IMG/VR virus record: IMGVR_UViG_3300021060_000001
Span: 1-46,328 of that record
Strand: one strand, 5' to 3'
Source: a virus
Length of the DNA stretch: 46,328 nucleotides
Translations under genes and position numbers: made by a program
Notes under the pieces: generated by a model
Databases searched by the model: none
What the model was told of the DNA's origin: nothing
What the model saw: only the letters and a program-made list of their open reading frames with translations
Shown: piece after piece, positions 17,747 to 31,050 of the stretch
How positions within the stretch are numbered: position 1 is the first letter of the stretch
How the letters are laid out: each line of letters opens with the position of its first letter

Positions 17747-20700
17747 ATGGCGGGCATGTTCGACGCGGCTGTTGACGAGATTGCAGCCGGCGAGGACAAG
17801 GCCGCCCGCGCCGCCGCGCCGGGATCGACGCTCGAGCCGCCCGCGCCGACGGTCGCGCCCGCGCAGAACCCCGGCGACGTGCTGCCGGGCCTGCCCGCCG
17901 ATCTGGCGACGCCCGCGCCCGCTCCCATGTTGCCCGGTCCGGCGCAGGATTTGGCGCCGACGGTCGCGCCGACGGTCCAGGCCGCCCCGGCGGCGCGGGG
18001 CATGTTCGACGCAGCGGTTGAGGAGATCGCGACGGAGGACACAAGCCGGCTGTCGTCGGCGCTGGAAACGGCCCGCACGCAGGACCCGGTGCGCTACACG
18101 GAAGCGGCTCGGATTGCCGAACGCGATGGCCTCCCGCTTGAGTTCGTTACGCAGAACTTGGACGACCTCAAGACGCGCGCCACCGCGAACGACATGCGCA
18201 AGAGCTTAGAGGCAAGCCCCCGCCTGAAGCAATGGTTTCTGACGGGCGACAACGCGAACACGGTCAAGCTGGACGATCTGCACAAGCTGTCCGGTCTCGG
18301 CTGGCTCATGGAAGCGACCGGCGCGCAGTGGTCGGACGGGTGGGATCAGCGTCAGTCGGCGGACATCCGGTATCGGCAGATCTTCGGCCGGGCAACACCG
18401 GAGGAGATCGCGCGCGCCGACGTGGCGGACCGGGCTGAGAAGCGGGATTACGGCTCGACCGGGTTCTTTCAGGGCGCCATCCCAGCCCTTGCCGGCCAAC
18501 TCCCTAACATGGCCGGCGGGCTGCTCGCGGGTATCCAGGCGGCCCCGTACGCGGCGACGCTGGGCACGGCGGTCGGCGCGTCGGTCGGTTCGCTCGCGGG
18601 CGGCATTGGGACCGTGCCGGGCGCTGTGGCCGGGTTCGGCTCGGGCGTCGCCACGGGCATGATCCAGGGCCGCGCGACGGACAGCTTCAAGCAGGAAGCC
18701 GGCGGGGCATACAGCGAGTTCCTACAGATCAAGGGCGACAACGGCGAGCGCGTGGACCCGGAGGTGGCGAAGGGCGCGGCGCTGATCGCGGGCGCGGCGA
18801 ACGCAGCCCTGGAAACCATCGGCGAGGCGGCGCTTGAGCGGCTCGTGCCGGGTCTCGACAAGTACGGCGTCGGCGCGCTACTGCGGAACGGCTCGCGCGA
18901 GGTGCTGAAGGAGGCGATCAAGCGGCCGTCCATCGCCGCCGTGCTTAAGTCGTTCGGCGGGAACGTCGCGCGCGGCGGGGCGACGGAGATCGGGACGGAA
19001 GTCCTGCAAGAGGCCGTGACGATCATGTCTCGGATCGCGACGGAGAAGAACAGCGCGGGCGAGTTCCAGCCCATGGAGGCTGCCGAGATCTCGTCGCGCC
19101 TCGTGGAGACGGCGGAACAGACAGCGCAGGCCATGCTGATCCTGACGCCGGCCCTGGGCTCGACCCGGCTCGGGCGCGACCTGACCGTGTGGAAGCGCAG
19201 CGAGGATATGCGTGCGATCTACCAGGGGGCGAACGAGGCGGCGGCGACGACCGAACTCAGGACCCGCGCGCCGGAAAAGTACCTTGATGCGGTGAAGTCG
19301 TTCCTCGGCGACGGCAAGGCCAGCGACACGGTGTACGTGTCCACGGACAAGCTGACCGAACTGTTTCAGTCGATGGATTTGTCGCCGGCCGATCTGGACG
19401 CGCGGATCGACGGGTTCTCGGCGCGGTATGCGGAGGCCCTGGCGACCGGGAACGACACGCACATCGACATGGCCGCGTTCCAAACGCACATCGCTGGCAC
19501 GCCGCTGGGCGAGGCGCTGATCGAACATCAGCGGTGGCACCCGGAACTCGCGACGGTGGCCGAGGCGCGCGACGCCCTGGCCGAGGCGCGGTCCGCGCAG
19601 GACAGCATGCTTGAGGAGGCGCTGAACGCGGCGAAGGCGGACGCGGCGAAGGCGGCCCCGCGCAAGCAAGTCGAGGACAGCGTGTACGCGATGCTCGTCA
19701 ACATCGGTGAAAGCCCCTCGACGGCGCGGGCGCAGGCGGTGTTGCAGGGCGCGTTCTTCGGGACGATGGGCGAGCGGGCCGGGATCGACCCGGTGCAGTT
19801 GTTCAACGACCAGGGCCTCGACATTCGCCGGGCGATGCCGGACGGGCTGGACTACCGGAAGACGGATGAACTCGATTTCGCTCTGGACGCGATCCGCAAG
19901 GGCGACGCGGAACGGGCCGGCAAGCTGCGTCGGAAGGGCCAGGGCGCGAGCCTCGGGTCGTTCCTGAAGTCGAGGGGCGGCCTGCGCGAGACCGACGCCT
20001 TTGCCGGCGAACTCCGCGCGCGAGACCTGAAGGGCGGACTGCGTGCGAAGGAAGGCGCCGGTCTCGATCTCGATAGCGCCTCGCTCGCGGCGGCCGAGGC
20101 CGGGTACTTCCCGAACGCGGTGAACGATGACGGCACGATCAACCGCGAGGGGCTGGTCGAGGCCCTGTTGTCCGCCGTGGATGAGGAGACCGCCGGCCGC
20201 CCGCTGTTCACGCTGCGGCCGGACGAAGTGCAGATCGACACCCGGCTCGCGCGCGTGGAGGCGCTGGCGGAGGAGATGGCGGCGCTCGGCCTCGACACGG
20301 CGTCGATGACGAACGACGAAATCCGCACCGAACTCATGAAGGCGTCCAGCCCGAACGCGACTGAGGGGGCGTTGTTTCAGGAGGCGAAGCCACGCCCGGC
20401 CTGGATGGAGGAGATCCTTAGCAAGAGCCACAAGCGCGACGCGGTGGCGAAGCGGGCTGCTGAGGCCGGCGGCACGGTGCGGCTCAAGAACCCGGACGGG
20501 CGCGTTGCTGCGGCCGGGCCGGATATGTCGGCGCCGGGCGGGTTTCGGCTGACCCGGTTCGATAGCGAGGGGCCGGTTGGGCACACGGAACACGCATCGT
20601 TGGAGGAGGCGGTTCGCGAGGGGATGCGGAACGGCTACCAGCCGGCGGCCGAGTTCTTCCAATCCACCGACCTCGCCGGTCCGCAGGCGGACAAGCGCGG

Positions 20701-23700
20701 CTCGATCCAGTTCCAGGGCGAGCGCACGGTCATCAACCTGTTCCAGGCGGCGAACCTCTCGACGTTTCTGCACGAAAGCGCCCACCTGTTCCTTGAGGTG
20801 AGCAAACAGGTGGCGGAACGGCCCGTCGAGCCCGGCGCGAACGATGTGATCCGTGACGACTGGCGCACGGTTCTGGCCTACATCGGCGCCAAGGAAGGCG
20901 AGGCGATCCCGCGCGAGGCGCACGAGAAGTTCGCCAAGGCGTTCGAGACGTATCTTTCCGAGGGGCGCGCACCGTCCGACGAACTGCGCGGCGTGTTCGA
21001 GCGGTTCAAGTCGTGGATGCTCCGGGTCTATCGCGGCGTCCAGCGCGCGGTCGGCCTGCCGGCCATCTCGCCCGAGATCCGCGACGTGTTCGACCGGATG
21101 CTCGCGACGGATCAAGAAATCGCCGAGGTGCAGTCCGACCGGGCGGTGCGCCCGATGTTCGCCGACGCCGCTGCGGCGGGCGTGACGGACGTGCAGTGGG
21201 CGAAGATGGTCAAGGCGGCCGAAGCCGCTACAGACGCCGCCAAGGGCACGCTGATGGCCCGCATGATGGGCGAGCGGGCGCGGGAACAGACGGCCGAGTG
21301 GAAGGCGCAGAAGGAAGCGATCCGCGCCGAGGTGGTGGACGACCTGTCACAACGCCCGGTCTATCAGGTCCAGCACTACATCCGCACGGGCGAGATCCTG
21401 AACAGCACCGAGACCGTGCCGCCGGACATCGGCGAACGTCGCCTCGACCGGGCGTGGCTCGTGAACCACTTCGGCAAGGATGTTCTGTCGCGCCTGCCCA
21501 AGCAGTCCGGCCGTCTCGTCTACGTCGAGAAGGGCGGGATCAGCCCCGACGAAATGGCTGACTGGTTCGGCTTCACGTCCGGCGAGCACATGATCGGTGA
21601 GATGCTGTCGGCCGTCCCGTACCAGCGCGCCGTCGTGGCGCGCACCGACGAACTCATGCGCGAGCGCAACGGCGACTTGCTGTCCAATCAGGCGGCGGTT
21701 GCCGAGGCTGCGGCGACGGCTTTCCACAACGACGTGCGGGCGCCGTTCCTCGAACTCGAATTGCAGGCGCTCGCGTCGAAGGCCAAGATCAAGGCCGGCA
21801 AGGTGCTGCCGCAGAAGGTTGCCCGCCAGATGGCCCGCGATCTGATCCGGGGGAAGAAGGCCAGCGAGGCCGGGCGCGTGGCCGTGTTCGCCAGGGCGCG
21901 CGACAAGGCGGCGCGCGCGGCCGAGACGGCGATGCTCCGCGAGGACTGGACGGCGGCGGCGGAGGCCAAGCGGCAACAGATTTTCAACCACTACCTGACC
22001 CTGGAAGCGCAGTCGGCGCGCGACGAGGCCGAAGCGATCCGGCGGTACCTCGACAAGTTCTCGGACCGGAAGCGGCCGGGCGGCGTGGACCCGGACTATC
22101 TCGACCAGATCGAGGGCATCCTTGAGCGGTTCGAGTTCAAGCGAGCGACGAGCCTGCCGGCCATTGAGCGGCGCAAGACCCTGGCCGCGTTCGTGGCTGA
22201 AGCGGAGGCGCGCGGCGACGCGCTGCTGATCCCGCAAGACCTTCTCGATAAGGCGGCGCTCACGTCCTACAAAGACATGACCATGGAAGACCTCGACGCC
22301 CTGCGCGACGTGGTGAAGAACGTCGAGCACCTGGGCCGGCTGAAGAACCGTCTGTTGGAAAAGGGCCGGCTCGTGTCGTTCGAACGGACCCGCGACGAGT
22401 TGGTGGCGCAGGCGCGCAAGACGCCGACGAAGAAGGCGCAGAAGTACCGGAACCCGACAGGGTGGGAGCGGTTCGCGAACGGCGTCGCGGGCGTGGATGC
22501 GTACCTGCTGAAGATGGAACAGGTGTTCCAGTGGCTCGATTTCGGCGATGCCAGCGGTCCGTTCTCGCGGATCGTGTTCGGCAAGTTCGTGGAGGCGCAG
22601 AACCGCAAGAGCGAGATGCAGCTTGCCGTGTCGGCGAAGCTGAAGACGATCCTCGACGGCCTCGACGCCGGGTATCTGAACGAGCGCAAGGCGGTCCCAG
22701 CGCGCCCCGAGTTGTCGTTCCTGCGCTCGGAACTCTACGCCATCGCGCTCAACCAGGGCACGGAAAGCAACCGCGCCAAGGTCCTCAAAGGCGAGACCTC
22801 GGCGACTAACTCGTTCCGGTCTGAGGATGAGATGAACTCGGCGCTGTCCCTCCTCACAAAGGAAGATTGGGACCGGGTGCAGTCCATGTGGGATGTGCTT
22901 GAGGGGTTCTGGCCTGAGACCGCCGCGCTTGAGCGCCGGCTGACCGGCGTCGAGCCGCCGAGGCTGGAGCGTCGCAAGGTCGCTACGGCGTTCGGTGAGT
23001 ATGCGGGCGGGTACTACCCGATGGTGTACGACCCGGCGCAGGCGTTCGACGTGCAGCAGCGGTCCGACAAGGAGCTCGATGCGCAGTTCGACAACACCAC
23101 GTTCTCGCGGCCGGCAGTCGCGCACGGGTTCACGAAGGCCCGCGTCGAGAACTACGCGCGGCCGATCTTGCTGGACCTGCGCGCGCTCACGGGGCACATC
23201 GACAAGGCAATCCAGAACATCACGCACCGCGAGCCCGTGCGCGATGCGCTGAAGCTCATCACCGACCCGACGTTGCAGGCGTCGCTCATCGAGACGATGG
23301 GCCGCCCGGTCTATCAGGAGATGTACAAGTGGCTCGACCGGATCGCGAAGGACCGGGGCGAGCCGCCGGCCAACGCGACCGTAGCGCGGGTGCTGTCCGG
23401 GGCGCGCGCGAACATCAGCCTGTACGCTATGGGGTTCCGGCTGACCACGGCACTCTCACAATTCGCCGGCTGGTCGAACTCGCTGGAGAAAGTGCGACCG
23501 GGGTTCCTCGCGTCCGGTTTGTACGAGATGACGTTCCGCCCGCGTGAAACGTGGGATCTGATTTCGTCCAAGTCGGGCGAGATGCGCGACCGCACGAATA
23601 ACCTCGACCGCGACGTGCGCTCGGCGCTTGCCCGGCTTGAGGGCAAGACCGGCGCCGTCGATGCGTTCAAACGGCACGCGTTCTTCTTCACGGCGATGGC

Positions 23701-24436
23701 AGATCGCATGGTTGCCGGCCCGACGTGGCTCGGCGCGTACAACCAGCACCTCGCCACGTACCCGACCGACGAAGCCGGGGCCGTGCGCTCAGGCGACGCG
23801 GCAGTACGGCTGACGCAGGGGGCTGGCGCAGCGAAAGACCTGTCCTCGATTATGGGAAATAAGAACGAGGCGCTTCAGGTCTATACGATGTTCTATTCGT
23901 ATTTTAACCTGTACTATAATCGCCTGCGCACACTCGGCCGCGACACTCGCGTTATGCTTCGCGACGGCGATTACGAGGACATTCCGCACTTGCTCGCGCG
24001 GTCCCTAGCTCTCGTGATCTTGCCGGCCGTGATGGCGGACGCGCTCGTGGGCAAGTGGAAGGACGAAGACGAGACCGTCGCGTGGTGGGCGTTCCGGAAG
24101 GCGAGCCTGTACCCGCTGATGTCCGTGCCCATCGCCCGCGATATCGCCGGATCTCTCGATAGCGGCCTCGCCTACCAGATGTCCCCGCTCGCTCGGTTCG
24201 GCGAGCTGGCGACGAAGCTGGCGCAGGACGCGAACAAGGTCGCGCAGGGCGAACAGGTAGAAGGGCGGATGGTTGCCAAGCGCGCGGCGGAACTTGCCGG
24301 GTATACGTTCGGCCTGCCGCTTGGGCAGACGGTTGGCACGGCGTCGAACGTGTGGCAAGGGTTGGAACAGAACGATTTCAAGACGCGCGATCTGTTGTTC
24401 GGCCGCCGTGCGTTTGGGGACACCCGCGATCAGTAG
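17747..24436 (+). CDS. Giant virion/ejection protein (2229 aa) with a zincin-like HExxH motif
   Basis: One uninterrupted coding-like ORF. Duplicated N-terminal GMFDAAV[DE]EIA motif. Glycine-zipper hydrophobic segment (GLLAGIQAAPYAATLGTAVGASVGSLAGGIGTVPGAVAGFGSG). FLHESAHLF at aa 1009-1013, with HEKFAKAFETYLSEG downstream. Confidence 0.8.
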   Translation: MAGMFDAAVDEIAAGEDKAARAAAPGSTLEPPAPTVAPAQNPGDVLPGLPADLATPAPAPMLPGPAQDLAPTVAPTVQAAPAARGMFDAAVEEIATEDTSRLSSALETARTQDPVRYTEAARIAERDGLPLEFVTQNLDDLKTRATANDMRKSLEASPRLKQWFLTGDNANTVKLDDLHKLSGLGWLMEATGAQWSDGWDQRQSADIRYRQIFGRATPEEIARADVADRAEKRDYGSTGFFQGAIPALAGQLPNMAGGLLAGIQAAPYAATLGTAVGASVGSLAGGIGTVPGAVAGFGSGVATGMIQGRATDSFKQEAGGAYSEFLQIKGDNGERVDPEVAKGAALIAGAANAALETIGEAALERLVPGLDKYGVGALLRNGSREVLKEAIKRPSIAAVLKSFGGNVARGGATEIGTEVLQEAVTIMSRIATEKNSAGEFQPMEAAEISSRLVETAEQTAQAMLILTPALGSTRLGRDLTVWKRSEDMRAIYQGANEAAATTELRTRAPEKYLDAVKSFLGDGKASDTVYVSTDKLTELFQSMDLSPADLDARIDGFSARYAEALATGNDTHIDMAAFQTHIAGTPLGEALIEHQRWHPELATVAEARDALAEARSAQDSMLEEALNAAKADAAKAAPRKQVEDSVYAMLVNIGESPSTARAQAVLQGAFFGTMGERAGIDPVQLFNDQGLDIRRAMPDGLDYRKTDELDFALDAIRKGDAERAGKLRRKGQGASLGSFLKSRGGLRETDAFAGELRARDLKGGLRAKEGAGLDLDSASLAAAEAGYFPNAVNDDGTINREGLVEALLSAVDEETAGRPLFTLRPDEVQIDTRLARVEALAEEMAALGLDTASMTNDEIRTELMKASSPNATEGALFQEAKPRPAWMEEILSKSHKRDAVAKRAAEAGGTVRLKNPDGRVAAAGPDMSAPGGFRLTRFDSEGPVGHTEHASLEEAVREGMRNGYQPAAEFFQSTDLAGPQADKRGSIQFQGERTVINLFQAANLSTFLHESAHLFLEVSKQVAERPVEPGANDVIRDDWRTVLAYIGAKEGEAIPREAHEKFAKAFETYLSEGRAPSDELRGVFERFKSWMLRVYRGVQRAVGLPAISPEIRDVFDRMLATDQEIAEVQSDRAVRPMFADAAAAGVTDVQWAKMVKAAEAATDAAKGTLMARMMGERAREQTAEWKAQKEAIRAEVVDDLSQRPVYQVQHYIRTGEILNSTETVPPDIGERRLDRAWLVNHFGKDVLSRLPKQSGRLVYVEKGGISPDEMADWFGFTSGEHMIGEMLSAVPYQRAVVARTDELMRERNGDLLSNQAAVAEAAATAFHNDVRAPFLELELQALASKAKIKAGKVLPQKVARQMARDLIRGKKASEAGRVAVFARARDKAARAAETAMLREDWTAAAEAKRQQIFNHYLTLEAQSARDEAEAIRRYLDKFSDRKRPGGVDPDYLDQIEGILERFEFKRATSLPAIERRKTLAAFVAEAEARGDALLIPQDLLDKAALTSYKDMTMEDLDALRDVVKNVEHLGRLKNRLLEKGRLVSFERTRDELVAQARKTPTKKAQKYRNPTGWERFANGVAGVDAYLLKMEQVFQWLDFGDASGPFSRIVFGKFVEAQNRKSEMQLAVSAKLKTILDGLDAGYLNERKAVPARPELSFLRSELYAIALNQGTESNRAKVLKGETSATNSFRSEDEMNSALSLLTKEDWDRVQSMWDVLEGFWPETAALERRLTGVEPPRLERRKVATAFGEYAGGYYPMVYDPAQAFDVQQRSDKELDAQFDNTTFSRPAVAHGFTKARVENYARPILLDLRALTGHIDKAIQNITHREPVRDALKLITDPTLQASLIETMGRPVYQEMYKWLDRIAKDRGEPPANATVARVLSGARANISLYAMGFRLTTALSQFAGWSNSLEKVRPGFLASGLYEMTFRPRETWDLISSKSGEMRDRTNNLDRDVRSALARLEGKTGAVDAFKRHAFFFTAMADRMVAGPTWLGAYNQHLATYPTDEAGAVRSGDAAVRLTQGAGAAKDLSSIMGNKNEALQVYTMFYSYFNLYYNRLRTLGRDTRVMLRDGDYEDIPHLLARSLALVILPAVMADALVGKWKDEDETVAWWAFRKASLYPLMSVPIARDIAGSLDSGLAYQMSPLARFGELATKLAQDANKVAQGEQVEGRMVAKRAAELAGYTFGLPLGQTVGTASNVWQGLEQNDFKTRDLLFGRRAFGDTRDQ

Positions 24437-24439
24437 GGG

Positions 24440-25579
24440 ATGACGATGAGCCTGTTCACCGACAAGGCCCCGGCGATCATGCGGGACCTCATGGCGGCCT
24501 TCGCGCTGGGCGAGGACGATGCCGCCGCCATCGTCGGGAACCTTGGGCACGAGAGCGGCGGGTTCAAGTTCCTGCAAGAGAAGAAGCCCCTCGTGCCGGG
24601 CAGCCGGGGCGGGTGGGGTTGGGCGCAGTGGACCGGCCCGCGCCGCCGCGCGTTCGAGGCGTGGGTCGCGGCGAAGGGACTCGATCCGGCGGGCGACGAG
24701 GCGAACCTTGGGTTCCTCGTCCACGAACTGCGCACGAGTGAGGCCAAGGCGATCCCGGCGGTGAAGGCCGCGCGCGGCTTGGAAGCCAAGGTGAAGGCGT
24801 TCGAGGCGGCGTTCGAGCGGGCCGGCGTCAAGCACTACCCATCTCGGATCAAGTACGCGGAACAGGCATTGGCCGCCTACAAGGGCGGCGCGCCTGCCCT
24901 GGCGCCGGTCAAGCGCCCGGCCGCGCCTCGTCGCTGGGCCGAAGACACGCTCGCCGTGTTCGAGATCCGCGCTGTGCAGGAGCGCCTGCGCGCGCTCGGG
25001 TATTTCATGGTCGGCAAGGTCGATGGCGATTGGGGCACGTCCACCACGGCGGCGGTGATCGCACTACAGACGCAGGCAGGCATCACGGCAGACGGGCACT
25101 ACGGCCCCGAGACTAAGGCCGCGCTCGCCGACGACGCGAACAAGCGGGTGGTCCCGGCGGCGCGGGCGAACACGACGGCCAAGGATCTGCGGAACCAGGG
25201 CTCGACTATTGCTATCGAGGGCAACCGGGTCACGTGGACTTCGGCGCTCGGTCTGGTCGCCGCCCTGGTCGCCGCCGCGCACGCCGCCTACACCGCGCCG
25301 GCAGAGTTGCCGTTCGGCTCCTCGATCTTCCTCGGGCTCGTCCCGCCGCCGTTCGGCTCGATCCTCTCGGCCGTGGCGCCGTACCTGCTGGCGTTCATTC
25401 CCCTGGCATACAACGCGCTTGCGGCGCAGGGCATCGTCCGGGCGCGGGTCGTTGCGGAACAGACGGGATTGCATAACGGCGAGCCGTCGCCGGCCCCGAC
25501 GACCGAAGAGGAACCATCCGACGCGCCGCCCCTTGGTGGCCTGCTGGGGTCTCTGTTCGGCCGGGGTCGGAAGTCGTGA
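24440..25579 (+). CDS. Lysozyme-like muramidase with a PG_binding_1 domain and C-terminal transmembrane segments (379 aa); endolysin or virion lysin
   Basis: GNLGHESGGFKFLQE...GGWGWAQWTGPRR (phage tail lysozyme-type motif). VQERLRALGYFMVGKVDGDWGTSTTAAVIALQTQAGITADGHYGPETKAAL (PG-binding repeat). Hydrophobic WTSALGLVAALVAAAHAAY and FGSILSAVAPYLLAFIPLAY. Confidence 0.75.
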   Translation: MTMSLFTDKAPAIMRDLMAAFALGEDDAAAIVGNLGHESGGFKFLQEKKPLVPGSRGGWGWAQWTGPRRRAFEAWVAAKGLDPAGDEANLGFLVHELRTSEAKAIPAVKAARGLEAKVKAFEAAFERAGVKHYPSRIKYAEQALAAYKGGAPALAPVKRPAAPRRWAEDTLAVFEIRAVQERLRALGYFMVGKVDGDWGTSTTAAVIALQTQAGITADGHYGPETKAALADDANKRVVPAARANTTAKDLRNQGSTIAIEGNRVTWTSALGLVAALVAAAHAAYTAPAELPFGSSIFLGLVPPPFGSILSAVAPYLLAFIPLAYNALAAQGIVRARVVAEQTGLHNGEPSPAPTTEEEPSDAPPLGGLLGSLFGRGRKS

Positions 25580-26037: not shown

Positions 26038-26413
26038 CGACGTGAAGCCCTGGATCGACATGCTCGTTACGTTGCTGTCGGCCGGTGGACTTGGGGGCAT
26101 TTTCCTAGCGGTGCTGGGGTGGATGAAGGCCAAGCATGAACGGCCCGCGCATATCGCGCCGGACCCGAGCATGGGTTCGGGCGCGCTCGCCCAGCTTGGC
26201 GGCATGGTCATGGGCCGGCAGACGGGTGAGGAAATCATCCTCGCGCTGAACGCCATCGCTGCGTCTCAGGACCGCTGCACGCTCGTACGAGAGAAAGAGA
26301 TCCGGGTGGCGCAGGAGCTTTCGGACGTGCGCCACCGGGAGATGCGGACCCTGAACGATCACCTCGACACGCTGTGTGACCGGCTTAAGAATTTGCCGGG
26401 GTGTGGGGCTTAG
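26027..26413 (+). CDS. N-terminal TM plus coiled-coil protein (128 aa); i-spanin-like or other lysis accessory
   Basis: WIDMLVTLLSAGGLGGIFLAVLGW TM followed by a helical, charged region. Last gene of the plus-strand late block. Confidence 0.45.
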   Translation: MSADDVKPWIDMLVTLLSAGGLGGIFLAVLGWMKAKHERPAHIAPDPSMGSGALAQLGGMVMGRQTGEEIILALNAIAASQDRCTLVREKEIRVAQELSDVRHREMRTLNDHLDTLCDRLKNLPGCGA

Positions 26414-26555
26414 GCGGTGGTGTAAGCCATGCGGTATGCGCGTCTTCATCCTGCGACACAAGCTCGTAACCGTCCGCGACAAGCTGCGTCAGGATTGCAT
26501 CCATCATCGTCGTTTTGCCCGAACCTTGCGGGCCTCTCAGTTCGATCGTTATCAT
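26385..26555 (-). CDS. 56-aa Walker-A-only mini-ORF (truncated P-loop NTPase or miniprotein)
   Basis: Below the track cut-off; I translated it by hand. AGGAGA lies 8 nt upstream of ATG 26555. Product MITIELRGPQGSGKTTMMDAILTQLVADGYELVSQDEDAHTAWLTPPPKPHTPANS. Stop TAA (rc) at 26385-26387. Overlaps 26027-26413 convergently by 29 nt. Confidence 0.4.
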   Translation of the reverse strand: MITIELRGPQGSGKTTMMDAILTQLVADGYELVSQDEDAHTAWLTPPPKPHTPANS

Positions 26556-26602: not shown

Positions 26603-26989
26603 TTACGCCCGACGACGACGGCTCGATCCGCCCGTCGCGGCTTCCTCAACGGCGTCGGACTGCTCCTCGCCGACGCTGCCCGGCCCGGTTTCCTGCGGAT
26701 CGGCCGCGTCGGGGACGACCGTCTCGACCGTCACCTCGCCCGCCTGCCCGGCGCTCGCTTCCTCGATCTCTGCCGGCGTCGGGCCTGCCTCGGCCGCCGC
26801 GCGGGAGGTGAACCGATGCTCGACCTTGAGCACGTCCACGCCGGGGAGTGCCGCCAGGGCGGCGATGCCGTGCCCGTCCTCGGCCGAAAGGATTGCATTC
26901 GACACCGCGATCTGGCTGCGGGTGCTGCCCTTCTCGACGGGGACGAACACGCGCAGGGTCACGACTGCACCGACTTCACGCTTTGCCAT
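26603..26989 (-). CDS. Hypothetical protein (128 aa): small beta-rich N-domain, long acidic tail, basic RRRRA end
   Basis: ORF immediately downstream of recT on the same strand. No motif recognised. Confidence 0.6.
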   Translation of the reverse strand: MAKREVGAVVTLRVFVPVEKGSTRSQIAVSNAILSAEDGHGIAALAALPGVDVLKVEHRFTSRAAAEAGPTPAEIEEASAGQAGEVTVETVVPDAADPQETGPGSVGEEQSDAVEEAATGGSSRRRRA

Positions 26990-27001: not shown

Positions 27002-27973
27002 TCAGAACCGATCTGCATCATCAGCGGCCGGGGCGTCCCGGTCCGCATCCATCGGGATCTCGCCCGTCTCCGGGTCGTGATCCTCTACGACCTCCGCGTC
27101 TTCCACGGGGGGCGATCCTTTATCCTGGCTGGCCTGCTGGCGGGCTTGGCGCAGCTTCTCGCGCCCGGCGCCTGCGCGCTTGGCCGGGGCCGCTGGCGGG
27201 GCATCCTCGCCGTCGTGTTCGATCTCGTCGCCTTCGCTGCGGTAGAGATCGTCCACGCGGCCGAACATCTGCGCGGTCTCGCTGTCGAACGGAAGCTGTT
27301 TCGAGTGGCGGCGCAGGACGGTCTTCTTCGCCATCTCGATTGTGTCGGTCTTCCAGATCCCGGCGAGGTTGCCTTCCCGATCCGTGTTCTTCGACTGCCG
27401 GCGAGCGATAGCCATGATCTCGGACCAGCGCATGACTTCGACCGAACGGTGGCCGCCTGCCATGGTCACGACGGAGTATGCTGCGACCGGCGGGCCAAGA
27501 TCACCGACGAGGAGCGGCCGGTGGATCAGGCGGGGTTCCGTGCCTTCTTGATACTCGAACGCCCCGGCGTCGAGCTCGGCTTGGTAGACGACCGAGACGG
27601 TGAGCACAGACACCATGCCCGAGTTGAAGATGCGGCGGCGCAGACCCGCGACCATGGGGATGTACTGCGCCTCGCGCGCCACGGTCTCCCACTTGCCGGT
27701 TTGCCGGTCCTTCTCGCGCTTGTTGTAGATCACAAGGGCGGCTTCGCGCCCGTCAAGCACGAGACCATCGGCGGCGGCCTTGCTGCACGCGTCGATGACG
27801 GACGCGGGCGTGCATTCGAGAAGCTCGCGGTTCCGGCGGATCGCGTCTTGGACGACCCGGACGAACTTCTTGACCGGGATGTTTGCCGGCAGGTTGGCTG
27901 TGAACGACGGCGCTGCGGCCTCAAGGGCGCCCTGTATTGCCAGGGCGCGGCTCTGCTGGGGGCTGTCAGCCAT
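27002..27973 (-). CDS. recT: RecT-family single-strand annealing recombinase (323 aa) with an acidic C-terminal tail ending in Phe
   Basis: RecT-like core (IPMVAGLRRR..., GIWKTDTIEMAKKTVLRRHSKQLP). Adjacent to the exonuclease. C-terminus ...DAPAADDADRF. Confidence 0.85.
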   Translation of the reverse strand: MADSPQQSRALAIQGALEAAAPSFTANLPANIPVKKFVRVVQDAIRRNRELLECTPASVIDACSKAAADGLVLDGREAALVIYNKREKDRQTGKWETVAREAQYIPMVAGLRRRIFNSGMVSVLTVSVVYQAELDAGAFEYQEGTEPRLIHRPLLVGDLGPPVAAYSVVTMAGGHRSVEVMRWSEIMAIARRQSKNTDREGNLAGIWKTDTIEMAKKTVLRRHSKQLPFDSETAQMFGRVDDLYRSEGDEIEHDGEDAPPAAPAKRAGAGREKLRQARQQASQDKGSPPVEDAEVVEDHDPETGEIPMDADRDAPAADDADRF

Positions 27974-27975
27974 GG

Positions 27976-28830
27976 CTAGTTCTCCTCAGGCGTGGTGTGG
28001 CGGTAGGCCCAGCGCGGGATGTCCAGCGGCTCGGGATCGTCGGGGTAGCCGGGCCATGCGTGAACGAGCGGCATGTCGAGGGCCTCGCGTTCCATGCACT
28101 GTGCGTACGTGGCGAGCGCGCGGCGGTAGACGGCGCGGCCTTCCTCGACGGCGGCAGGCTTGAGTTCGTAGCAGGACACGATGAACGGCGCGGTCTTCTC
28201 GATGACCACGAAGATGAAGGCGTCGGGCAGGTGGGGCCGGGTCGTCTGGGCGCGCGTCGCCTCGGACCAGATGTGAGAATAGAACGCCTCCTGCACATGA
28301 TAACCGAAATTGGCGGTCGCCCTAGCGAACTCCTCGCGACCGCCGGCCTGCGCCGTCTTCAGGTCCAGAATGATGTTGTGCCCCTCGTGATAGCCGTCCG
28401 GCCGACACCGGCACAGCACGCCGGTCTCAGGGTCTACGGCGTACCCGCTGGCCTCGATCATGGCGCCCTTGCGCAGGTCGCGCAGGGTACCCGAGCGGTC
28501 GGCGCTGTCGCGAATGCGCAGAACCTTGGCGTACTCGCTCTCGGGCAGAAGCAGGGCGCCGAAGTGATCGGCCTGCAACTGCGCGTCCTTCCACTTGTTG
28601 CCGCGCCGATCCTCGGGGCCGCACATGACGGCGGAGGCAAGGCGCTCGGGCTCCAGTACGGCGATGTGCGCGGCAGTGCCGAGATCGAACGCGGCGGTGT
28701 CCTTGCGCTCGCCGAACTTGTAGTGGGCAGGGGTGGACTTGGCGATAGTCCAGAGGCCGCTTTTGGAAACGCCGGGGCCGGCGTGGTAGTCTTCGGAGGA
28801 CAGGTTGAGGTGGATGCCTGGGGCGGTCAT
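27976..28830 (-). CDS. PD-(D/E)XK exonuclease, RecE/exodeoxyribonuclease VIII-like (284 aa)
   Basis: N-terminal LSSEDYHAGPGVSKSGL. Catalytic-type RPDGY...IILDLKTA and QEAFY (QxxxY) motifs. Paired with recT. Confidence 0.8.
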   Translation of the reverse strand: MTAPGIHLNLSSEDYHAGPGVSKSGLWTIAKSTPAHYKFGERKDTAAFDLGTAAHIAVLEPERLASAVMCGPEDRRGNKWKDAQLQADHFGALLLPESEYAKVLRIRDSADRSGTLRDLRKGAMIEASGYAVDPETGVLCRCRPDGYHEGHNIILDLKTAQAGGREEFARATANFGYHVQEAFYSHIWSEATRAQTTRPHLPDAFIFVVIEKTAPFIVSCYELKPAAVEEGRAVYRRALATYAQCMEREALDMPLVHAWPGYPDDPEPLDIPRWAYRHTTPEEN

Positions 28831-28865
28831 GGGTTCGCTCGCGGTGTGAGGATGGGAGGGGCAGA

Positions 28866-29204
28866 CTAGAACGGGATGGCCTCGTTATCGTCCACCAGAT
28901 CGGCGTCCTCGAACGCGGGCGTCGGCGCGGCCAGGGCTGGAACGGGCGGCAGACCGGCAGTGGATGCGGGCTCGAACTTGGCCCACGCCTTGGCGAGGGC
29001 GGCGTCGAAAGTTTCGCCGAACTGCGAAGAGATTTCCAGCTTAACGCCATCGCGCTCAGCCTGAAGCTGGCACAGCCATTCCTTGCCAGCCTTCTCCCAT
29101 GAGTTGCGCCTGTGACGCCCGATCACGACGCCGATATCCTGCGCGTCGCACGCTTCCAAAATCTCTCTCGTGGTTTTCATCGCTTCAGTTCCTTGTTGTC
29201 CCAT
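28866..29204 (-). CDS. Small protein with an SSB-like acidic C-terminal tip ...DDNEAIPF (112 aa, or 104 aa from ATG 29180)
   Basis: First gene of the exonuclease/recT operon. ATG 29180 has AAGGAA 9 nt upstream. Pro/Ala linker, then EDADLVDDNEAIPF followed by the stop (TAG rc 28866-28868). Confidence 0.65.
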   Translation of the reverse strand: MGQQGTEAMKTTREILEACDAQDIGVVIGRHRRNSWEKAGKEWLCQLQAERDGVKLEISSQFGETFDAALAKAWAKFEPASTAGLPPVPALAAPTPAFEDADLVDDNEAIPF

Positions 29205-29222: not shown

Positions 29223-29251
29223 TTGACGCAGCGTCAAGCGGGGATTATGAT
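29223..29251 (+). promoter_or_regulatory. Sigma70-like promoter TTGACG-17 nt-TATGAT whose -35 lies in the palindromic operator TTGACGCAGCGTCAA (site S1)
   Basis: Read directly. Perfect inverted arms TTGACG/CGTCAA at 29223-29237 and TATGAT at 29246-29251. Sits in the 71-bp divergent intergenic region between 29204(-) and 29276(+). Confidence 0.6.
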
Positions 29252-29275
29252 CGGCGTCGAAATGGAGGGGCTGAT

Positions 29276-29596
29276 ATGCCAGTGGAAAGTACGCCGGTCG
29301 AACGGCTTTTGGCGCTGTTCAATACGCGCACACGGAAGGGCTGCATTCGGCCAATTCAAGAGCGCAACAACGGCATGTCACAATTCGCCCAAAAAAGCGG
29401 CATCGACATCTCGGTTGTTTCACGCTGGCGCCACGGCAAGGCATCTGTGCCTGCCGGCCGCATACCGACGAGCTACAACCAGCGCATCATCGAGACGTTC
29501 GACCGCGAGGGGATCTCGCGCACGAACCTCATCGGCATCCTCGACCCGCATCATTGCGAGGCGTGCGGGGCTGTGGTGTCGGGAGTGGAGAAGTGA
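29276..29596 (+). CDS. XRE/Cro-like helix-turn-helix regulator (106 aa)
   Basis: GGAGGGG lies 5 nt upstream of ATG 29276, inside track ORF 29099..29596. HTH-like MSQFAQKSGIDISVVSRWRHGK. Lies next to operator S1. Confidence 0.7.
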   Translation: MPVESTPVERLLALFNTRTRKGCIRPIQERNNGMSQFAQKSGIDISVVSRWRHGKASVPAGRIPTSYNQRIIETFDREGISRTNLIGILDPHHCEACGAVVSGVEK

Positions 29597-31050
29597 GCGG
29601 CGTTACGCTCAGGCCGTATCAGGTGGAGGGCGTGGATAAGATCCGCGCCGCCCTGCGCGGGAACGACGCCGTGTTGTTCCAGGCGCCGACCGGCGCGGGC
29701 AAGACGCAGGTCGTCGCGTACATGATGCGCGCTGCCGTCGCGAAGGGCGGGCGCCCCTGGTTTATCGTGCATCGCGACTTCCTCGTGGACCAAACGAGCA
29801 AGACCCTCTCGCGCGTCGGGGTCGATCATGCGTTCATCGCCGCCGGCCGCCCGTGGAACCCGTGGAAGCCGGCGCAGATCTGCGCCATCGACACGCTACG
29901 GTCCCGCCTCGAACGGGTGCCGCCGGAGCGCCTGCCGACCGTCGTATTCGTGGATGAGGCGCACCACGCCTGCGCCGCGACGTGGCTCCGGGTCCTGCGG
30001 TGGCTGATGGAGCGTGGATGCAAGGTCGTCGGCGTGTCAGCGACGCCCGAGCGCCTGGACGGCAAAGGCTTGGATGAGTTCTTCCAGGCCATGATCCCCG
30101 GCCCCTCCGTGGAGTGGCTGATCGAACAGGGATATCTCTCTCGGTACACAGCCTTCGCGCCGACCATGCCCGATCTGTCCGGCGTCGGATCGCGGGGCGG
30201 AGACTTCAAGACCGACGAACTGAACAAGGTAATGGATAAGGACGTGCTCGTCGGGAACATGGTCGGGCATTACAAGACCCTCGCGGCGGGGAAGCGGGCC
30301 GTCTATTTCTGCGTGTCCATCGCGCACAGCCAGCACGTCGCCAAAGCGTTCCGCGATGCCGGGGTGTCAGCGGTCCACCTCGACGGATCGTCGCCGTGGG
30401 ACGAACGCAGGGCCGCAGCGCGCGGCATGGCAATCGGGGAGATCGACGTTATCACGAACGTGGCCCTGTTCGGAGAGGGGTACGATCTTGCGGCGCAGGC
30501 CGGCATGGATGTGACGATTGAGGCCGTTGGTCTCGCCCGGCCGACGCAATCCCTCGCCATGTACATGCAGCAGGTCGGCCGCGCACTGCGGCCCAAGCTC
30601 GATCCGGCGATCATCCTCGACCACGCCGGGAACGTGATGCGCCACGGCCTGCCCGACGACGAGCGGGTGTGGAGTCTGGAGGGCAAGAAGAAGAGCGCGA
30701 AGAAGGCTTCACAGCTTGCCGGCCCGGCTCCGCGCGTGTGCCTCGCGTGTTTCGCTCAGGTCCGCGCGAACTCGCCTGTGTGCACCAACTGCGGCGCGCC
30801 GTTTGGGGGAGGCGACCGCATTCTTGAGGAGAACGACGACGAACTCGTGCCGGTGAATGCCGAGGAGATGAAGCGTCAGCGGAAAATGCAGGAGCACGCG
30901 GCGGAGACGCTAGAGGATTTGATCGAGGTTGGCAGGGCGCGCGGGTACGACAAGCCCGAGCGATGGGCCAGTCACCTCTGGACGGCCCGTCAGCGCGGGC
31001 GTCGCGGTCTCGACGTGGATGCCCAAGCGGCGGCGCAACGCCGATGGTGA
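29593..31050 (+). CDS. SF2 DEAD/DEAH-box helicase with a C-terminal CxxC...CxxC zinc ribbon (485 aa from GTG 29593)
   Basis: Motif I FQAPTGAGKT, motif II VFVDEAHH, motif III VSATP, motif VI QQVGRALR. CLACFAQVRANSPVCTNCG. GTGA overlap with the HTH gene. Confidence 0.9.
   Translation: MSGVTLRPYQVEGVDKIRAALRGNDAVLFQAPTGAGKTQVVAYMMRAAVAKGGRPWFIVHRDFLVDQTSKTLSRVGVDHAFIAAGRPWNPWKPAQICAIDTLRSRLERVPPERLPTVVFVDEAHHACAATWLRVLRWLMERGCKVVGVSATPERLDGKGLDEFFQAMIPGPSVEWLIEQGYLSRYTAFAPTMPDLSGVGSRGGDFKTDELNKVMDKDVLVGNMVGHYKTLAAGKRAVYFCVSIAHSQHVAKAFRDAGVSAVHLDGSSPWDERRAAARGMAIGEIDVITNVALFGEGYDLAAQAGMDVTIEAVGLARPTQSLAMYMQQVGRALRPKLDPAIILDHAGNVMRHGLPDDERVWSLEGKKKSAKKASQLAGPAPRVCLACFAQVRANSPVCTNCGAPFGGGDRILEENDDELVPVNAEEMKRQRKMQEHAAETLEDLIEVGRARGYDKPERWASHLWTARQRGRRGLDVDAQAAAQRRW

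What the first reader, a model, noticed from the sequence alone, without database searches (positions are those of the whole stretch)
28866..29204. Small protein heading the RecE/RecT operon ends in an SSB-type acidic ...IPF tip; RecT also ends acidic+Phe
The first gene of the exonuclease/recT operon encodes a 104-112-aa protein. It has a ~70-aa globular N-terminus, a Pro/Ala linker (STAGLPPVPALAAPTPA) and a C-terminus EDADLVDDNEAIPF immediately before the stop. An acidic run ending in I-P-F at the extreme C-terminus is the architecture of the bacterial SSB tip (E. coli ...DDDIPF). That tip docks ExoI, RecQ, PriA, the chi subunit, RecO and others. T7 gp2.5 also needs an acidic tail with a terminal Phe. 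This protein is too short for a normal OB-fold SSB and does not look like one. The RecT two genes downstream (27002-27973) also ends ...DAPAADDADRF. Two proteins of one recombination operon therefore carry SSB-tip-like tails. Possible roles are a decoy or adaptor that plugs into the host SSB interactome (recruiting or blocking host nucleases/helicases), a handle for the phage exonuclease/RecT, or an unusually small new ssDNA-binding fold.
Basis: partly seen in the sequence, partly recalled or inferred. Interest (0 to 1): 0.75.

Follow-up and report, generated by a model that had tools for sequence, protein, structure and literature searches.

The report
Phage mini-protein carrying an SSB tail
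A 104-residue phage protein ahead of the exonuclease/RecT genes has a small non-SSB domain plus a flexible tail that copies the docking tip of the bacterial DNA-binding hub protein SSB, which suggests phages hand out this "ticket" on many different proteins to plug into host DNA replication and repair.

Summary
The gene at 28866-29204(-) is real, but its start is most likely ATG 29180 (104 aa). It ends ...FEDADLVDDNEAIPF-stop and heads a DUF3799 (RecE-like) exonuclease/RecT operon.

The protein belongs to a small family (16 distinct sequences) found only in metagenomic phage contigs. Nine members end in an acidic run plus [IMV][PLV]F; several end in DDEIPF, the alpha-proteobacterial SSB tip. 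Five keep only an upstream [ED]DAx[FYL] motif.

The N-domain is predicted to be alpha-beta-beta-beta-alpha (dsRBD-like), not an OB fold, and is neutral to acidic. A new mini-SSB is therefore unlikely.

RecT's tail is a portable module. Sister phages swapped the exonuclease and annealase core for YqaJ plus an OB-like protein but kept the same last ~27 residues.

The divergent neighbour is a RadD-like helicase. E. coli RadD is activated by the SSB tip, and homologous helicases in other phages carry DDEIPF at their own C-terminus.

In two samples, 63 of 236 viral ORFs ending in DD[DE]IPF were not SSBs.

Best reading (confidence ~0.5): a free-standing SSB-tip adaptor that docks into SSB-tip pockets. 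The receptor is unproven. I found no literature precedent. Interest 0.7.

The parts
28866..29180 (-). Small-protein gene: 104 codons plus the TAG stop at 28866-28868. It is the first gene of the leftward exonuclease/RecT operon.
   Evidence: Homologues were found. It has no Pfam, PHROG or PADLOC hit.
28959..29180 (-). N-domain, residues 1-74. It is predicted to be alpha-beta-beta-beta(-beta)-alpha (dsRBD-like topology), not an OB fold, and has net charge -1.
   Evidence: AlphaFold2 model: H4-13, E17-23, E34-43, E46-49, E53-55, H58-74, with block pLDDT of 66-86. Foldseek best hits are dsRBDs, hibernation factors and T7 gp1.2, all weak. Charge was computed.
28911..28958 (-). Disordered Pro/Ala linker, residues 75-90 (AGLPPVPALAAPTPAF), containing the family-conserved G-[LI]-P ... 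A-P motif.
   Evidence: pLDDT is below 60 and falls below 50 at residues 78-86. G76 and P78 are nearly invariant. P86 is invariant in alignment A2.
28869..28910 (-). Bipartite acidic tail, residues 91-104: motif 1 is EDADL, motif 2 is DDNEAIPF-COOH (the SSB-tip-like end).
   Evidence: Relatives end in DDEIPF, GDDIPF, QEDIPF, DDDMPF, SDDILF or VDDVVF. LDDEIPF is the alpha-proteobacterial SSB-C7 (PMC13490951).
29181..29204 (-). In-frame upstream extension from ATG 29204, probably untranslated. It contains the AAGGAA ribosome-binding site at 29189-29194.
   Evidence: The ATG at 29204 is absent in L001, L012 and L005, whereas the RBS and ATG 29180 are conserved.
29223..29237 (.). Palindrome TTGACGCTGCGTCAA between the divergent operons. 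It supplies a TTGACG -35-like hexamer on each strand. The TTGAC is conserved in all six sister phages.
27976..28830 (-). RecE-like PD-(D/E)XK exonuclease (DUF3799 / exonuclease VIII family).
   Evidence: In sister phages it is replaced by a YqaJ exonuclease.
27002..27973 (-). RecT annealase with an acidic, low-complexity C-terminal extension of about 88 residues beyond the Pfam RecT domain match (residues 36-235).
27005..27085 (-). Portable RecT tail module, residues 297-323 (EDHDPETGEIPMDADRDAPAADDADRF). DNA homology with sister phages resumes here after the swapped cassette.
   Evidence: homology to L011 breaks at 28858 and resumes at 27085. RecT 287-323 is 70-73% identical to the C-terminus of the unrelated phrog_11517 protein of L010/L011.
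27089..27103 (-). RecT motif 1 (EDAEV within VEDAEVV), the same motif class as EDADL in the small protein.
   Evidence: It is also present in the L005 RecT.
29554..31050 (+). RadD-like SF2 helicase (ResIII + Helicase_C + zinc ribbon), transcribed divergently from the small gene. It is the candidate phage-encoded receptor or partner of the tail.
   Evidence: Pfam and PHROG hits. Its best PDB sequence hit is E. coli RadD, E 2.4e-16. Pocket residues were compared. Homologous helicases carry DDEIPF in cis.
29237..29557 (+). 106-aa gene with a weak HTH-like match, first gene of the rightward operon. It overlaps the helicase start.
   Evidence: Gene calls on the source contig. The HTH_3 match is weak, E 0.012.

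Best explanation
**What it is.** The gene encodes a free-standing carrier of an SSB-type tip. It has three parts:
- a ~74-residue, non-OB, slightly acidic alpha/beta domain;
- a disordered Pro/Ala linker;
- a bipartite acidic-aromatic tail whose end copies the C-terminal tip of the host SSB.

**What is shown.** The architecture, the conservation of the tail, the non-OB prediction and the genomic associations are shown by the analyses here.

**Inferred mechanism.**
- The terminal ...IPF-COOH and the upstream acidic residues dock into the hydrophobic pocket and basic rim that SSB-interacting proteins use to read the SSB tip.
- The N-domain contacts a protein, not DNA.
- The protein thus supplies in trans the tag that other phages fuse in cis to their replication and recombination proteins, most often to a helicase homologous to the one encoded next door.

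**Most likely wiring.**
- The protein works with the adjacent RadD-like helicase.
- Either its tip occupies the helicase's RadD-type SSB pocket, or its N-domain binds the helicase and lends it a tip.
- Through the same tip it connects phage recombination and replication intermediates to SSB-tip readers: host proteins such as the Pol III chi subunit, PriA, RecQ and DnaG, and possibly the phage RecT.

**RecT.** RecT, or the OB-like protein that replaces it in sister phages, carries a second, related tail ([DE]D[DE]xR[FI]). This tail is inherited with the phage backbone and not with the annealase core, which suggests it is read by a backbone-encoded or host partner.
For: **Tail conservation**
- Nine of 16 family members end in an acidic run plus [IMV][PLV]F, and six end in exact IPF. 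This is despite 30-45% N-domain identity and unalignable linkers.
- DDEIPF matches the alpha-proteobacterial SSB tip (PMC13490951).

**N-domain**
- It is not an OB fold: no Pfam hit, an alpha-beta3-alpha model, and dsRBD-type fold hits only.
- It is neutral to acidic in all members.

**Independence from the exonuclease/annealase type**
- The same gene heads DUF3799+RecT cassettes (window, L005) and YqaJ+phrog_11517 cassettes (L001, L010, L011, L012).
- The cassette boundaries lie just after the small gene's stop and inside the annealase tail.

**Helicase link**
- The neighbour's best PDB sequence hit is RadD.
- RadD ATPase is stimulated by the SSB-Ct peptide through a pocket framed by R21, R49 and R145 (PMC10238739).
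- The five phage helicases aligned keep R21, have K at position 145, and keep the hydrophobic character at positions 20, 44, 113 and 147.
- Eleven of 117 sampled viral ORFs ending in DDEIPF are helicases 27-31% identical to the window helicase.
- Those 11 loci contain no homologue of the small protein, whereas all 7 control loci do.
- In a second lineage the small gene starts 2 nt after a UvrD-like helicase gene.

**Generality and known biology**
- 63 of 236 sampled viral ORFs ending in DD[DE]IPF are not SSBs. They include an ERF annealase, a weak Cas4-like nuclease match, a Prim-Pol primase-helicase and many small proteins.
- SSB-tip reading by phage annealases is established for RecT and Redbeta (10.1101/2020.04.14.041095; PMC6393309).
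Against: - There is no binding or structural evidence for any receptor.
- Five close relatives lack a terminal IPF (they end ...DDADYAEVL...EDADFREV or ...EDAEFEEIY), and two lack an acidic-hydrophobic tip altogether. A canonical SSB-tip pocket cannot therefore be the only reader.
- The third basic residue of the RadD pocket (R49) does not align, so pocket conservation is only suggestive.
- SSB tips occur on more than 30 unrelated scaffold clusters across the two samples, so the helicase link is not exclusive.
- The AlphaFold model has moderate confidence (mean pLDDT 71.5 from 9 sequences), and every fold match is weak (E at or above 0.003).
- The host is unknown.
Confidence: 0.5

Rival explanations
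1. **Competitive decoy with a Gam-like role.** The protein is made early and abundantly. Its SSB tip saturates the SSB-tip pockets of host nucleases and helicases (RecJ, RecQ, ExoI-type enzymes, PriA, RecG). This uncouples them from SSB-coated DNA and protects the 3' ssDNA intermediates made by the phage exonuclease. The N-domain adds avidity or specificity.
For: - It is the first gene of the recombination operon, next to a conserved promoter-like region. This is the position gam holds in lambda (own knowledge).
- The tip is identical to host-type SSB tips in relatives.
- It is independent of the exonuclease/annealase type.
- SSB-tip readers bind such peptides with Kd from 0.1 to 10 uM (PMC6393309; PMC10238739).
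Against: - Close relatives that have lost the terminal IPF would be non-functional decoys.
- A micromolar peptide would have to outcompete the many tips of host SSB.
- Other phages put the same tip on helicases, annealases and primases. That looks like recruitment, not inhibition.
- There is no similarity to Gam or RacC and no PADLOC hit.
Confidence: 0.2
2. **Minimal non-OB DNA-binding protein (a surrogate SSB).** The N-domain binds ssDNA or DNA ends and the tail then acts exactly as in SSB. This would serve a phage that has no recognisable OB-fold SSB.
For: - The overall layout (core, disordered linker, acidic tip) is that of SSB.
- No SSB or DNA polymerase was recognised among the window proteins screened, which were the non-structural genes.
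- The dsRBD-like fold class includes nucleic-acid binders.
Against: - N-domain net charge is -4 to +1 and pI is about 5-6 in most members, which is atypical for a nucleic-acid-binding domain.
- There is no dsRBD sequence signature.
- The gene is kept in sister phages that do encode an OB-like tailed protein.
Confidence: 0.08
3. **Generic acidic tail not read by SSB-tip pockets.** The tail would be an intramolecular or electrostatic element (autoinhibition, DNA mimicry, solubility), or a phage-internal handle analogous to the T7 gp2.5/gp4 tails. The IPF ending would be incidental in some lineages.
For: - The endings vary (EVL, EIY, REV) and the shared motif 1, [ED]DAx[FYL], is not the SSB tip.
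- The RecT and OB-like tails end in R[FI], not PF.
- In L010, L001 and L012 the last codons overlap the start region of the next gene, which constrains them.
Against: - Exact DDEIPF or GDDIPF in the most divergent members is hard to explain without selection for the SSB-tip code.
- The chance of a given C-terminal tripeptide is about 1e-4 (own estimate from residue frequencies).
- The pattern-based survey shows the exact host tip recurring on many phage DNA-metabolism proteins.
Confidence: 0.12

Closest known systems
C-terminal tip of bacterial SSB (SSB-Ct, e.g. E. coli MDFDDDIPF; alpha-proteobacterial LDDEIPF)
   Same: A disordered Pro-rich linker is followed by an acidic run ending in I-P-F with a free carboxylate. 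There is also an upstream acidic-aromatic element, comparable to the D-F in MDFDDDIPF. Relatives carry the exact DDEIPF.
   Different: The tail sits on a ~74-residue alpha-beta3-alpha domain with no OB fold and no basic surface. The window protein has DDNEAIPF rather than DD[DE]IPF. Some relatives lack the PF end.
Acidic, Phe-terminated tails of phage T7 gp2.5 (SSB) and gp4 (helicase-primase) (own knowledge)
   Same: Several proteins of one phage DNA-metabolism set share an acidic tail with a terminal aromatic residue. These tails are portable and are thought to be read by a common partner. Here the proteins are the small protein, RecT and the OB-like protein.
   Different: The T7 tails are read by the phage's own polymerase, and this phage has no recognisable polymerase. 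The small protein's tip copies the host SSB tip rather than a phage-specific code.
SSB-Ct reading by phage annealases (RecT family, lambda Redbeta C-terminal domain) and the lambda Exo-Redbeta interface
   Same: The setting is a recombination operon in which an annealase is known to read the last 7-9 residues of SSB (10.1101/2020.04.14.041095; PMC6393309). In lambda a Phe of the exonuclease uses the pocket proposed for the SSB Phe.
   Different: Here the tip is presented by a separate small protein, and RecT itself carries an acidic tail. No interaction has been tested.
E. coli RadD-SSB (SF2 ATPase activated by the SSB-Ct peptide; PMC10238739)
   Same: The neighbouring phage helicase's best PDB sequence hit is RadD (E 2.4e-16), and it has a zinc ribbon like RadD. 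It keeps R21, has K at position 145, and keeps hydrophobic character at the pocket positions.
   Different: Identity is only ~28%. The R49 equivalent is ambiguous. RadD's C-terminal domain is absent. In other phages this helicase type carries the tip itself.
lambda Gam / Rac RacC (small first gene of a Red/RecET operon)
   Same: It is a small protein encoded immediately upstream of the exonuclease.
   Different: There is no sequence relation (no Pfam hit; hhalign probability 0.1% to RacC). RacC has no SSB-like tail.

Membership tests
Bacterial SSB (Pfam PF00436) | N-terminal OB-fold ssDNA-binding domain | tested here: not met
   No Pfam or PHROG hit at E up to 0.1. The AlphaFold2 model is alpha-beta-beta-beta-alpha. 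Foldseek returns dsRBD-type folds, not OB folds.
Bacterial SSB (Pfam PF00436) | Intrinsically disordered Pro/Gly-rich linker after the core | tested here: met
   In residues 75-104, 10-residue block-mean pLDDT is 47-60, with residues 78-86 below 50. The sequence is Pro/Ala-rich (GLPPVPALAAPTPA).
Bacterial SSB (Pfam PF00436) | Acidic C-terminal tip ending in [IL]-P-F-COOH | tested here: met
   The protein ends ...DDNEAIPF-stop. Six of 16 family members end in IPF and nine of 16 in an acidic run plus [IMV][PLV]F.
Bacterial SSB (Pfam PF00436) | Homotetramer that binds ssDNA | not testable with these tools
   This needs biochemistry. The N-domain charge of -4 to +1 argues against strong DNA binding.
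T7 gp2.5-type phage SSB | OB-fold core plus an acidic tail with a terminal aromatic residue | tested here: not met
   The tail feature is met but the core is not an OB fold. The phrog_11517 protein of sister phages fits this layout better: it has a beta-barrel with weak OB-fold matches and an acidic tail.
dsRBD (double-stranded RNA-binding domain, PF00035) | alpha-beta-beta-beta-alpha topology of about 70 residues | tested here: inconclusive
   The predicted topology matches. The best Foldseek hits are dsRBDs, but with E 0.003-0.3 and TM about 0.4-0.5.
dsRBD (double-stranded RNA-binding domain, PF00035) | Sequence signature and a basic RNA-binding surface | tested here: not met
   No Pfam hit. 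Net charge is -1 and pI is 5.8.
lambda Gam / RacC-type first gene of Red/RecET operons | Sequence or profile similarity | tested here: not met
   No Pfam or PHROG family hit. hhalign against RacC gives probability 0.1%.
RecT family (for the gene at 27002-27973) | RecT domain PF03837 | tested here: met
   E 4.6e-26 over residues 36-235. phrog_148 matches with E 5.9e-42.
RadD-like SF2 helicase (for the gene at 29554-31050) | SF2 motor domains plus a zinc ribbon | tested here: met
   ResIII E 1.5e-18, Helicase_C E 2.5e-7, DZR_2 E 9.6e-5. The best PDB sequence hit is RadD 6jde/7r7j, E 2.4e-16.
RadD-like SF2 helicase (for the gene at 29554-31050) | SSB-Ct pocket: R21, R49 and R145 around a hydrophobic pocket (PMC10238739) | tested here: inconclusive
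   R21 is R in all five phage helicases and R145 is K in all five. R49 aligns to G or C, with a K or R one residue upstream inside a 3-residue insertion. F20 becomes L, L44 becomes M, L113 becomes V and L147 becomes V.
RadD-like SF2 helicase (for the gene at 29554-31050) | RadD C-terminal domain | tested here: not met
   The phage protein is 498 aa against 586 aa for RadD, and the alignment has long gaps over RadD's C-terminal region.

The most novel reading that the evidence does not exclude
**Proposed general strategy.** Phages use the host SSB tip as a portable address label. They fuse it to helicases, annealases, nucleases, primases and many tiny proteins to wire their DNA-metabolism proteins into the host SSB interactome.

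**In this lineage.** The label may have been split off as a stand-alone subunit that serves, or switches on, a RadD-like helicase. A second, backbone-linked tail code marks whichever ssDNA-annealing or ssDNA-binding core sits in the recombination cassette.

**Why it would be new.** In the literature I could search, this would be the first case of viral short-linear-motif mimicry of the bacterial SSB hub on non-SSB scaffolds.
Probability: 0.35. Interest if true: 0.85.

Novelty: new variant of a known kind. Interest (0 to 1): 0.7.

Why it matters
**Why the SSB tip matters.** The last residues of SSB are the docking hub for about 20 bacterial replication, repair and recombination enzymes. They also set the host range of RecT-type recombineering proteins.

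**What a stand-alone tip carrier would provide:**
- a natural tool and probe for the SSB interactome;
- a candidate accessory factor that could make RecET-type recombineering systems portable or more efficient;
- a possible natural regulator of RadD-like helicases, whose cellular role is still unclear;
- evidence that motif mimicry of a host hub protein, familiar from eukaryotic viruses, is also common in phages.

**Further consequences.**
- The portable annealase tail gives a direct handle on how phage recombination modules are exchanged without losing their connections.
- The survey result is easy to extend into a catalogue: about a quarter of the sampled viral ORFs ending in DD[DE]IPF are not SSBs.

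Tried and rejected
- **Plain short OB-fold SSB.** Rejected.
- **Relation to RacC, the positional analogue in the Rac prophage.** Rejected. RacC has no tail and hhalign probability is 0.1%.
- **Split-off N-terminal part of a longer RecE-type exonuclease.** The exonuclease matches only positions 135-409 of phrog_412, but the small protein has no PHROG hit at all.
- **Known defence or anti-defence component.** No PADLOC hit.
- **Homologues in cultured phages, prophages or reference genomes.** None in 50,697 INPHARED phage records. None in one genome for each of 185,579 GTDB species. The family is metagenome-only.
- **PDB sequence relatives.** None below E 0.18.
- **Variant tails (EVL, EIY) as frameshift or assembly artefacts hiding an IPF.** Rejected. 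No alternative frame encodes IPF.
- **N-domain fused to the tip-bearing helicases or to other DDEIPF proteins.** No hmmsearch hit.
- **Covariation between small-protein tail type and exonuclease/annealase type, or helicase pocket residues.** No pattern in the six syntenic phages.
- **Host identification.** No tRNA genes, and only distant isolate relatives that infect Ralstonia, Pseudomonas and Xanthomonas. The phrog_11517 family points to Methylobacterium and Roseomonas prophages, but the host remains unknown.
- **Literature precedent for a non-SSB phage protein with an SSB tip.** Six searches found none.
Full report
**1. The observation**

The ORF at 28866..29204 on the minus strand is real and ends atc-ccg-ttc-tag, which is I-P-F-stop. 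The annotated 112-aa form starts at ATG 29204. The true start is most likely ATG 29180 (104 aa, MKTTREIL...), for four reasons:
- Every homologue begins there.
- Gene callers on the source contigs chose it.
- An AAGGAA ribosome-binding site lies 8 nt upstream.
- The ATG at 29204 is not conserved in sister phages.

The two downstream genes are a DUF3799/exonuclease VIII-type nuclease and a RecT. RecT ends ...DAPAADDADRF.

The tails are unusual within the window:
- Of 44 predicted proteins, only these two have an acid-rich C-terminus.
- Of 650 ORF segments of at least 40 aa, only this one ends in an acidic run plus [ILMV][PLV]F.

**2. The family and its tail**

The protein has no Pfam, PHROG or PADLOC hit. 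It has no PDB sequence relative. It has no homologue in cultured phages or in one genome for each of 185,579 GTDB species.

Searches of 5.8 billion and 1.8 billion protein sets, plus IMG/VR, gave 16 distinct members, all from metagenomic phage contigs. Features conserved across the family:
- N-domain residues R22, W35, G45, A61, A65, W66 and F69.
- A G-[LI]-P ... A-P motif in the linker.

The rest of the linker does not align, yet the ends are conserved:

| Ending | Members |
|---|---|
| ...DDNEAIPF | window |
| ...EDNERIPF | L011 |
| GDDIPF | P0008 |
| DDEIPF | P0010, P0011 |
| QEDIPF | P0012 |
| DDDMPF | P0007 |
| SDDILF | P0013 |
| VDDVVF | P0006/L012 |

DDEIPF is the alpha-proteobacterial SSB tip. 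LDDEIPF was found in 5,795 of 18,841 assemblies (PMC13490951).

The tail is bipartite. Motif 1 is [ED]-D-A-x-[FYL] (EDADL in the window protein). Motif 2 is the SSB-like end.
- Five close relatives keep only motif 1 followed by 3-4 residues (DDADY-AEVL, EDADF-REV, EDAEF-EEIY).
- Two members have neither motif.
- The variant ends are not frameshift artefacts. In L010, L001 and L012 the last codons overlap the start region of the next gene.

**3. The N-domain**

An AlphaFold2 model built from a nine-sequence alignment has mean pLDDT 71.5 (block means 66-86 over the domain). It predicts helix 4-13, strands 17-23, 34-43, 46-49 and 53-55, and helix 58-74, followed by disorder.

Foldseek against the PDB and BFVD returns dsRBDs, ribosome hibernation factors and T7 gp1.2. 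All matches are weak (E 0.003-0.3, TM about 0.4-0.5), and none is an OB fold.

The domain has net charge -4 to +1 (pI about 5-6 in most members) in all 16 members. This argues for a protein-binding rather than a nucleic-acid-binding role.

**4. Context and the cassette swap**

Six syntenic phages carry the small gene as the first gene of the leftward operon: the window (also held as L003/L004), L001/L002, L005/L006, L010, L011 and L012. In all of them it is transcribed divergently from an HTH-like gene and an SF2 helicase.
- In the window and L005 the small gene is followed by DUF3799+RecT.
- In L001, L010, L011 and L012 it is followed by a YqaJ exonuclease plus a 206-215-aa phrog_11517 protein.

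At the DNA level, homology between the window and L011 runs from 31656 to 28858, through the small gene's stop. It then breaks and resumes at 27085, which lies inside the last ~27 codons of RecT.

As a result, the RecT tail EDHDPETGEIPMDADRDAPAADDADRF is 70-73% identical to the tail of the unrelated phrog_11517 protein, EEDHDPETGEVPMSADRDEPAADDDRF. Other members of the annealase slot end in DETDEDRI (L005 RecT) and AVDDDMRI (L001).

The annealase-slot tail is therefore a portable module. It travels with the phage backbone and not with the exonuclease/annealase cassette.

RecT also has a motif 1 (VEDAEVV). In the 13,469 aa of predicted window proteins, this motif class occurs only in RecT and the small protein.

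**5. The RecT substitute**

The phrog_11517 protein models confidently (pLDDT 90). It has a beta-barrel at residues 22-125, three helices and a disordered acidic tail. The best fold matches are OB folds (Trbp111, MetRS-C, EMAP2, ligase OB, Teb1), but they are weak (E above 0.1).

The family has at least 3,237 members, all unannotated. It includes Methylobacterium, Methylorubrum and Roseomonas sequences. In cultured phages it sits next to exonucleases. Close members end in DDDRI, DDEVF or DDDRF, and distant ones carry a DDDFPGF motif.

Three unrelated cores in this lineage therefore carry related acidic-aromatic tails: the dsRBD-like domain, RecT and the OB-like protein.

**6. Candidate readers of the tail**

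- *Annealases.* RecT-family proteins recognise the last 7 residues of host SSB (10.1101/2020.04.14.041095). Redbeta binds the SSB-Ct peptide with Kd about 11 uM, against 98 nM for ExoI (PMC6393309).
- *The divergently encoded helicase.* It has ResIII, Helicase_C and a zinc ribbon. Its best PDB sequence hit is E. coli RadD (E 2.4e-16). RadD's ATPase is stimulated by the SSB-Ct peptide independently of DNA, through a hydrophobic pocket framed by R21, R49 and R145 (PMC10238739). In the five phage helicases aligned:
  - R21 is kept.
  - Position 145 is K.
  - Positions 20, 44, 113 and 147 stay hydrophobic.
  - R49 is ambiguous, with a K or R one residue upstream inside an insertion.
- *Host SSB-tip readers in general.* No SSB or DNA polymerase was recognised among the non-structural window proteins screened. 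The phage probably relies on the host replisome.

**7. A survey that generalises the finding**

I scanned IMG/VR for DNA encoding DDEIPF-stop, using a GC-rich codon pattern and taking the first 120 hits. This gave 117 ORFs.
- 76 match an iterated OB-SSB HMM seeded with residues 1-115 of E. coli SSB.
- 41 do not, and they fall into 23 clusters.

The largest non-SSB class is 11 SF2 helicases with the same ResIII + Helicase_C + zinc-ribbon architecture. They are 27-31% identical to the window helicase. Other non-SSB proteins include an ERF annealase, a weak Cas4/PD-(D/E)XK-like nuclease match, DUF6511 proteins and several unrelated 63-138-aa proteins.

A second scan for DDDIPF-TAA with AT-rich codons gave 119 ORFs, of which 97 are SSB-like and 22 are not. 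The 22 include a Prim-Pol/PriCT-2/DUF5906 primase-helicase, a DUF4062/TIR-like protein and more small proteins.

None of these proteins is homologous to the window protein. The 11 loci whose helicase carries the tip in cis contain no homologue of the small protein, whereas all 7 control loci do. In another lineage (L008/L009) the small gene starts 2 nt after a UvrD-like helicase gene.

From the pattern's information content, I estimate only a few chance matches in the whole collection. The recurrence is therefore due to selection.

**8. Mechanism**

*Shown:*
- The architecture.
- The conservation of the tail.
- The non-OB, non-basic core.
- Independence from the exonuclease/annealase type.
- The association with helicases.
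- The wide use of exact SSB tips on non-SSB phage proteins.

*Inferred:*
- The tip docks in SSB-tip pockets.
- The protein supplies in trans what other phages fuse in cis.
- The RadD-like helicase is the prime phage partner, and host SSB-tip readers are the likely further targets.

I put this adaptor model at about 0.5. The rivals are a Gam-like decoy of host nucleases and helicases (0.2), a generic or phage-internal acidic tail not read by SSB pockets (0.12), and a minimal non-OB DNA binder (0.08).

The main weak points:
- There is no interaction evidence.
- The terminal IPF is lost in close relatives.
- The RadD pocket is only partly conserved.
- Structural confidence is moderate.
- The host is unknown.

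**9. Comparison with what is known, and novelty**

- The tail works like the SSB tip, but the protein fails the defining OB-fold test for SSB membership.
- It resembles the shared acidic tails of T7 gp2.5 and gp4 in logic (own knowledge).
- It occupies the position of Gam or RacC but is unrelated to them.
- Six literature searches found no description of a non-SSB phage protein carrying an SSB tip.

I rate it a new variant of a known kind: motif mimicry of a known hub tip on new scaffolds.

**10. Limits of the survey**
- The two samples are each the first 120 matches to a codon-restricted pattern.
- My HMM may miss divergent SSBs. Several of the 130-225-aa 'non-SSB' proteins could be atypical SSBs.
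- ORF starts were taken as the first start codon after the preceding stop.

Noticed in passing
IMG/VR loci L016-L135 and L136-L255 (e.g. L036:8177-9865, L130:5498-6412, L236:1250-3523, L243:2100-3041, L021:7546-7761): Exact host-type SSB tips (DDEIPF or DDDIPF before the stop) end many non-SSB phage proteins. In total, 63 of 236 sampled ORFs fail an iterated OB-SSB HMM. They include 11 RadD-like SF2 helicases, an ERF annealase, a weak Cas4-like nuclease match, a Prim-Pol/PriCT-2 primase-helicase, a DUF4062/TIR-like protein, DUF6511 proteins and at least 15 unrelated proteins shorter than 140 aa.
   Followed up: partly
window 27085-28857 versus L011 6327-7609 (also L010, L001, L012): Sister phages have exchanged the whole exonuclease plus annealase-core cassette: DUF3799+RecT on one side, YqaJ+phrog_11517 on the other. 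One junction lies just after the small gene's stop. The other lies inside the annealase gene, leaving the last ~27 codons (the acidic tail) with the backbone.
   Followed up: yes
L001:7028-7648 (P0015) and homologues P0016-P0134: phrog_11517 is a large unannotated family (at least 3,237 proteins), found in Methylobacterium, Methylorubrum and Roseomonas genomes and next to exonucleases in Arthrobacter, Gordonia and Vibrio phages. It models at pLDDT 90 as a beta-barrel with weak OB-fold matches, a three-helix domain and an acidic tail. It occupies the RecT slot, so it is probably an ssDNA-binding or annealing protein.
   Followed up: partly
window 29223-29237: The perfect palindrome TTGACGCTGCGTCAA lies between the divergent early operons. 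It gives a TTGACG -35-like hexamer on both strands, and the TTGAC is conserved in all six sister phages. It looks like a shared operator/promoter for the adjacent HTH-like gene at 29237-29557.
   Followed up: partly
window 26603-26989 (-): A 128-aa protein directly after RecT is conserved in all six sister phages regardless of cassette type (41-88% identity). It has no family hit, an acidic C-terminal half and an ...SSRRRRA end. Its function is unknown.
   Followed up: no
window 26385-26555 (-): A 56-aa ORF consists of little more than a Walker A P-loop (GPQGSGKT) with weak AAA/NTPase hits. It may be a remnant or a mini-NTPase. It is present in the window and L003/L004 but was not seen in the other sister loci.
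   Followed up: no
window 14508-17738 (+): The 1076-aa structural-region protein also ends ...APVAIPF, but with no acidic run. It is probably a coincidence and serves as a caution that IPF alone is not diagnostic.
   Followed up: no
L008:1-1891 and L009:1-1819: In a different phage lineage the small-protein homologue (P0012, tail QEDIPF) starts 2 nt after the stop of a UvrD-like SF1 helicase gene (TAAGATG). This suggests translational coupling with a helicase.
   Followed up: partly
window 17747-24436 (+): A 2229-aa protein with an LPD22 domain lies just upstream of a lysozyme/PG_binding gene (24440-25579). This is a giant virion-associated or polyvalent protein typical of this phage group.
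   Followed up: no
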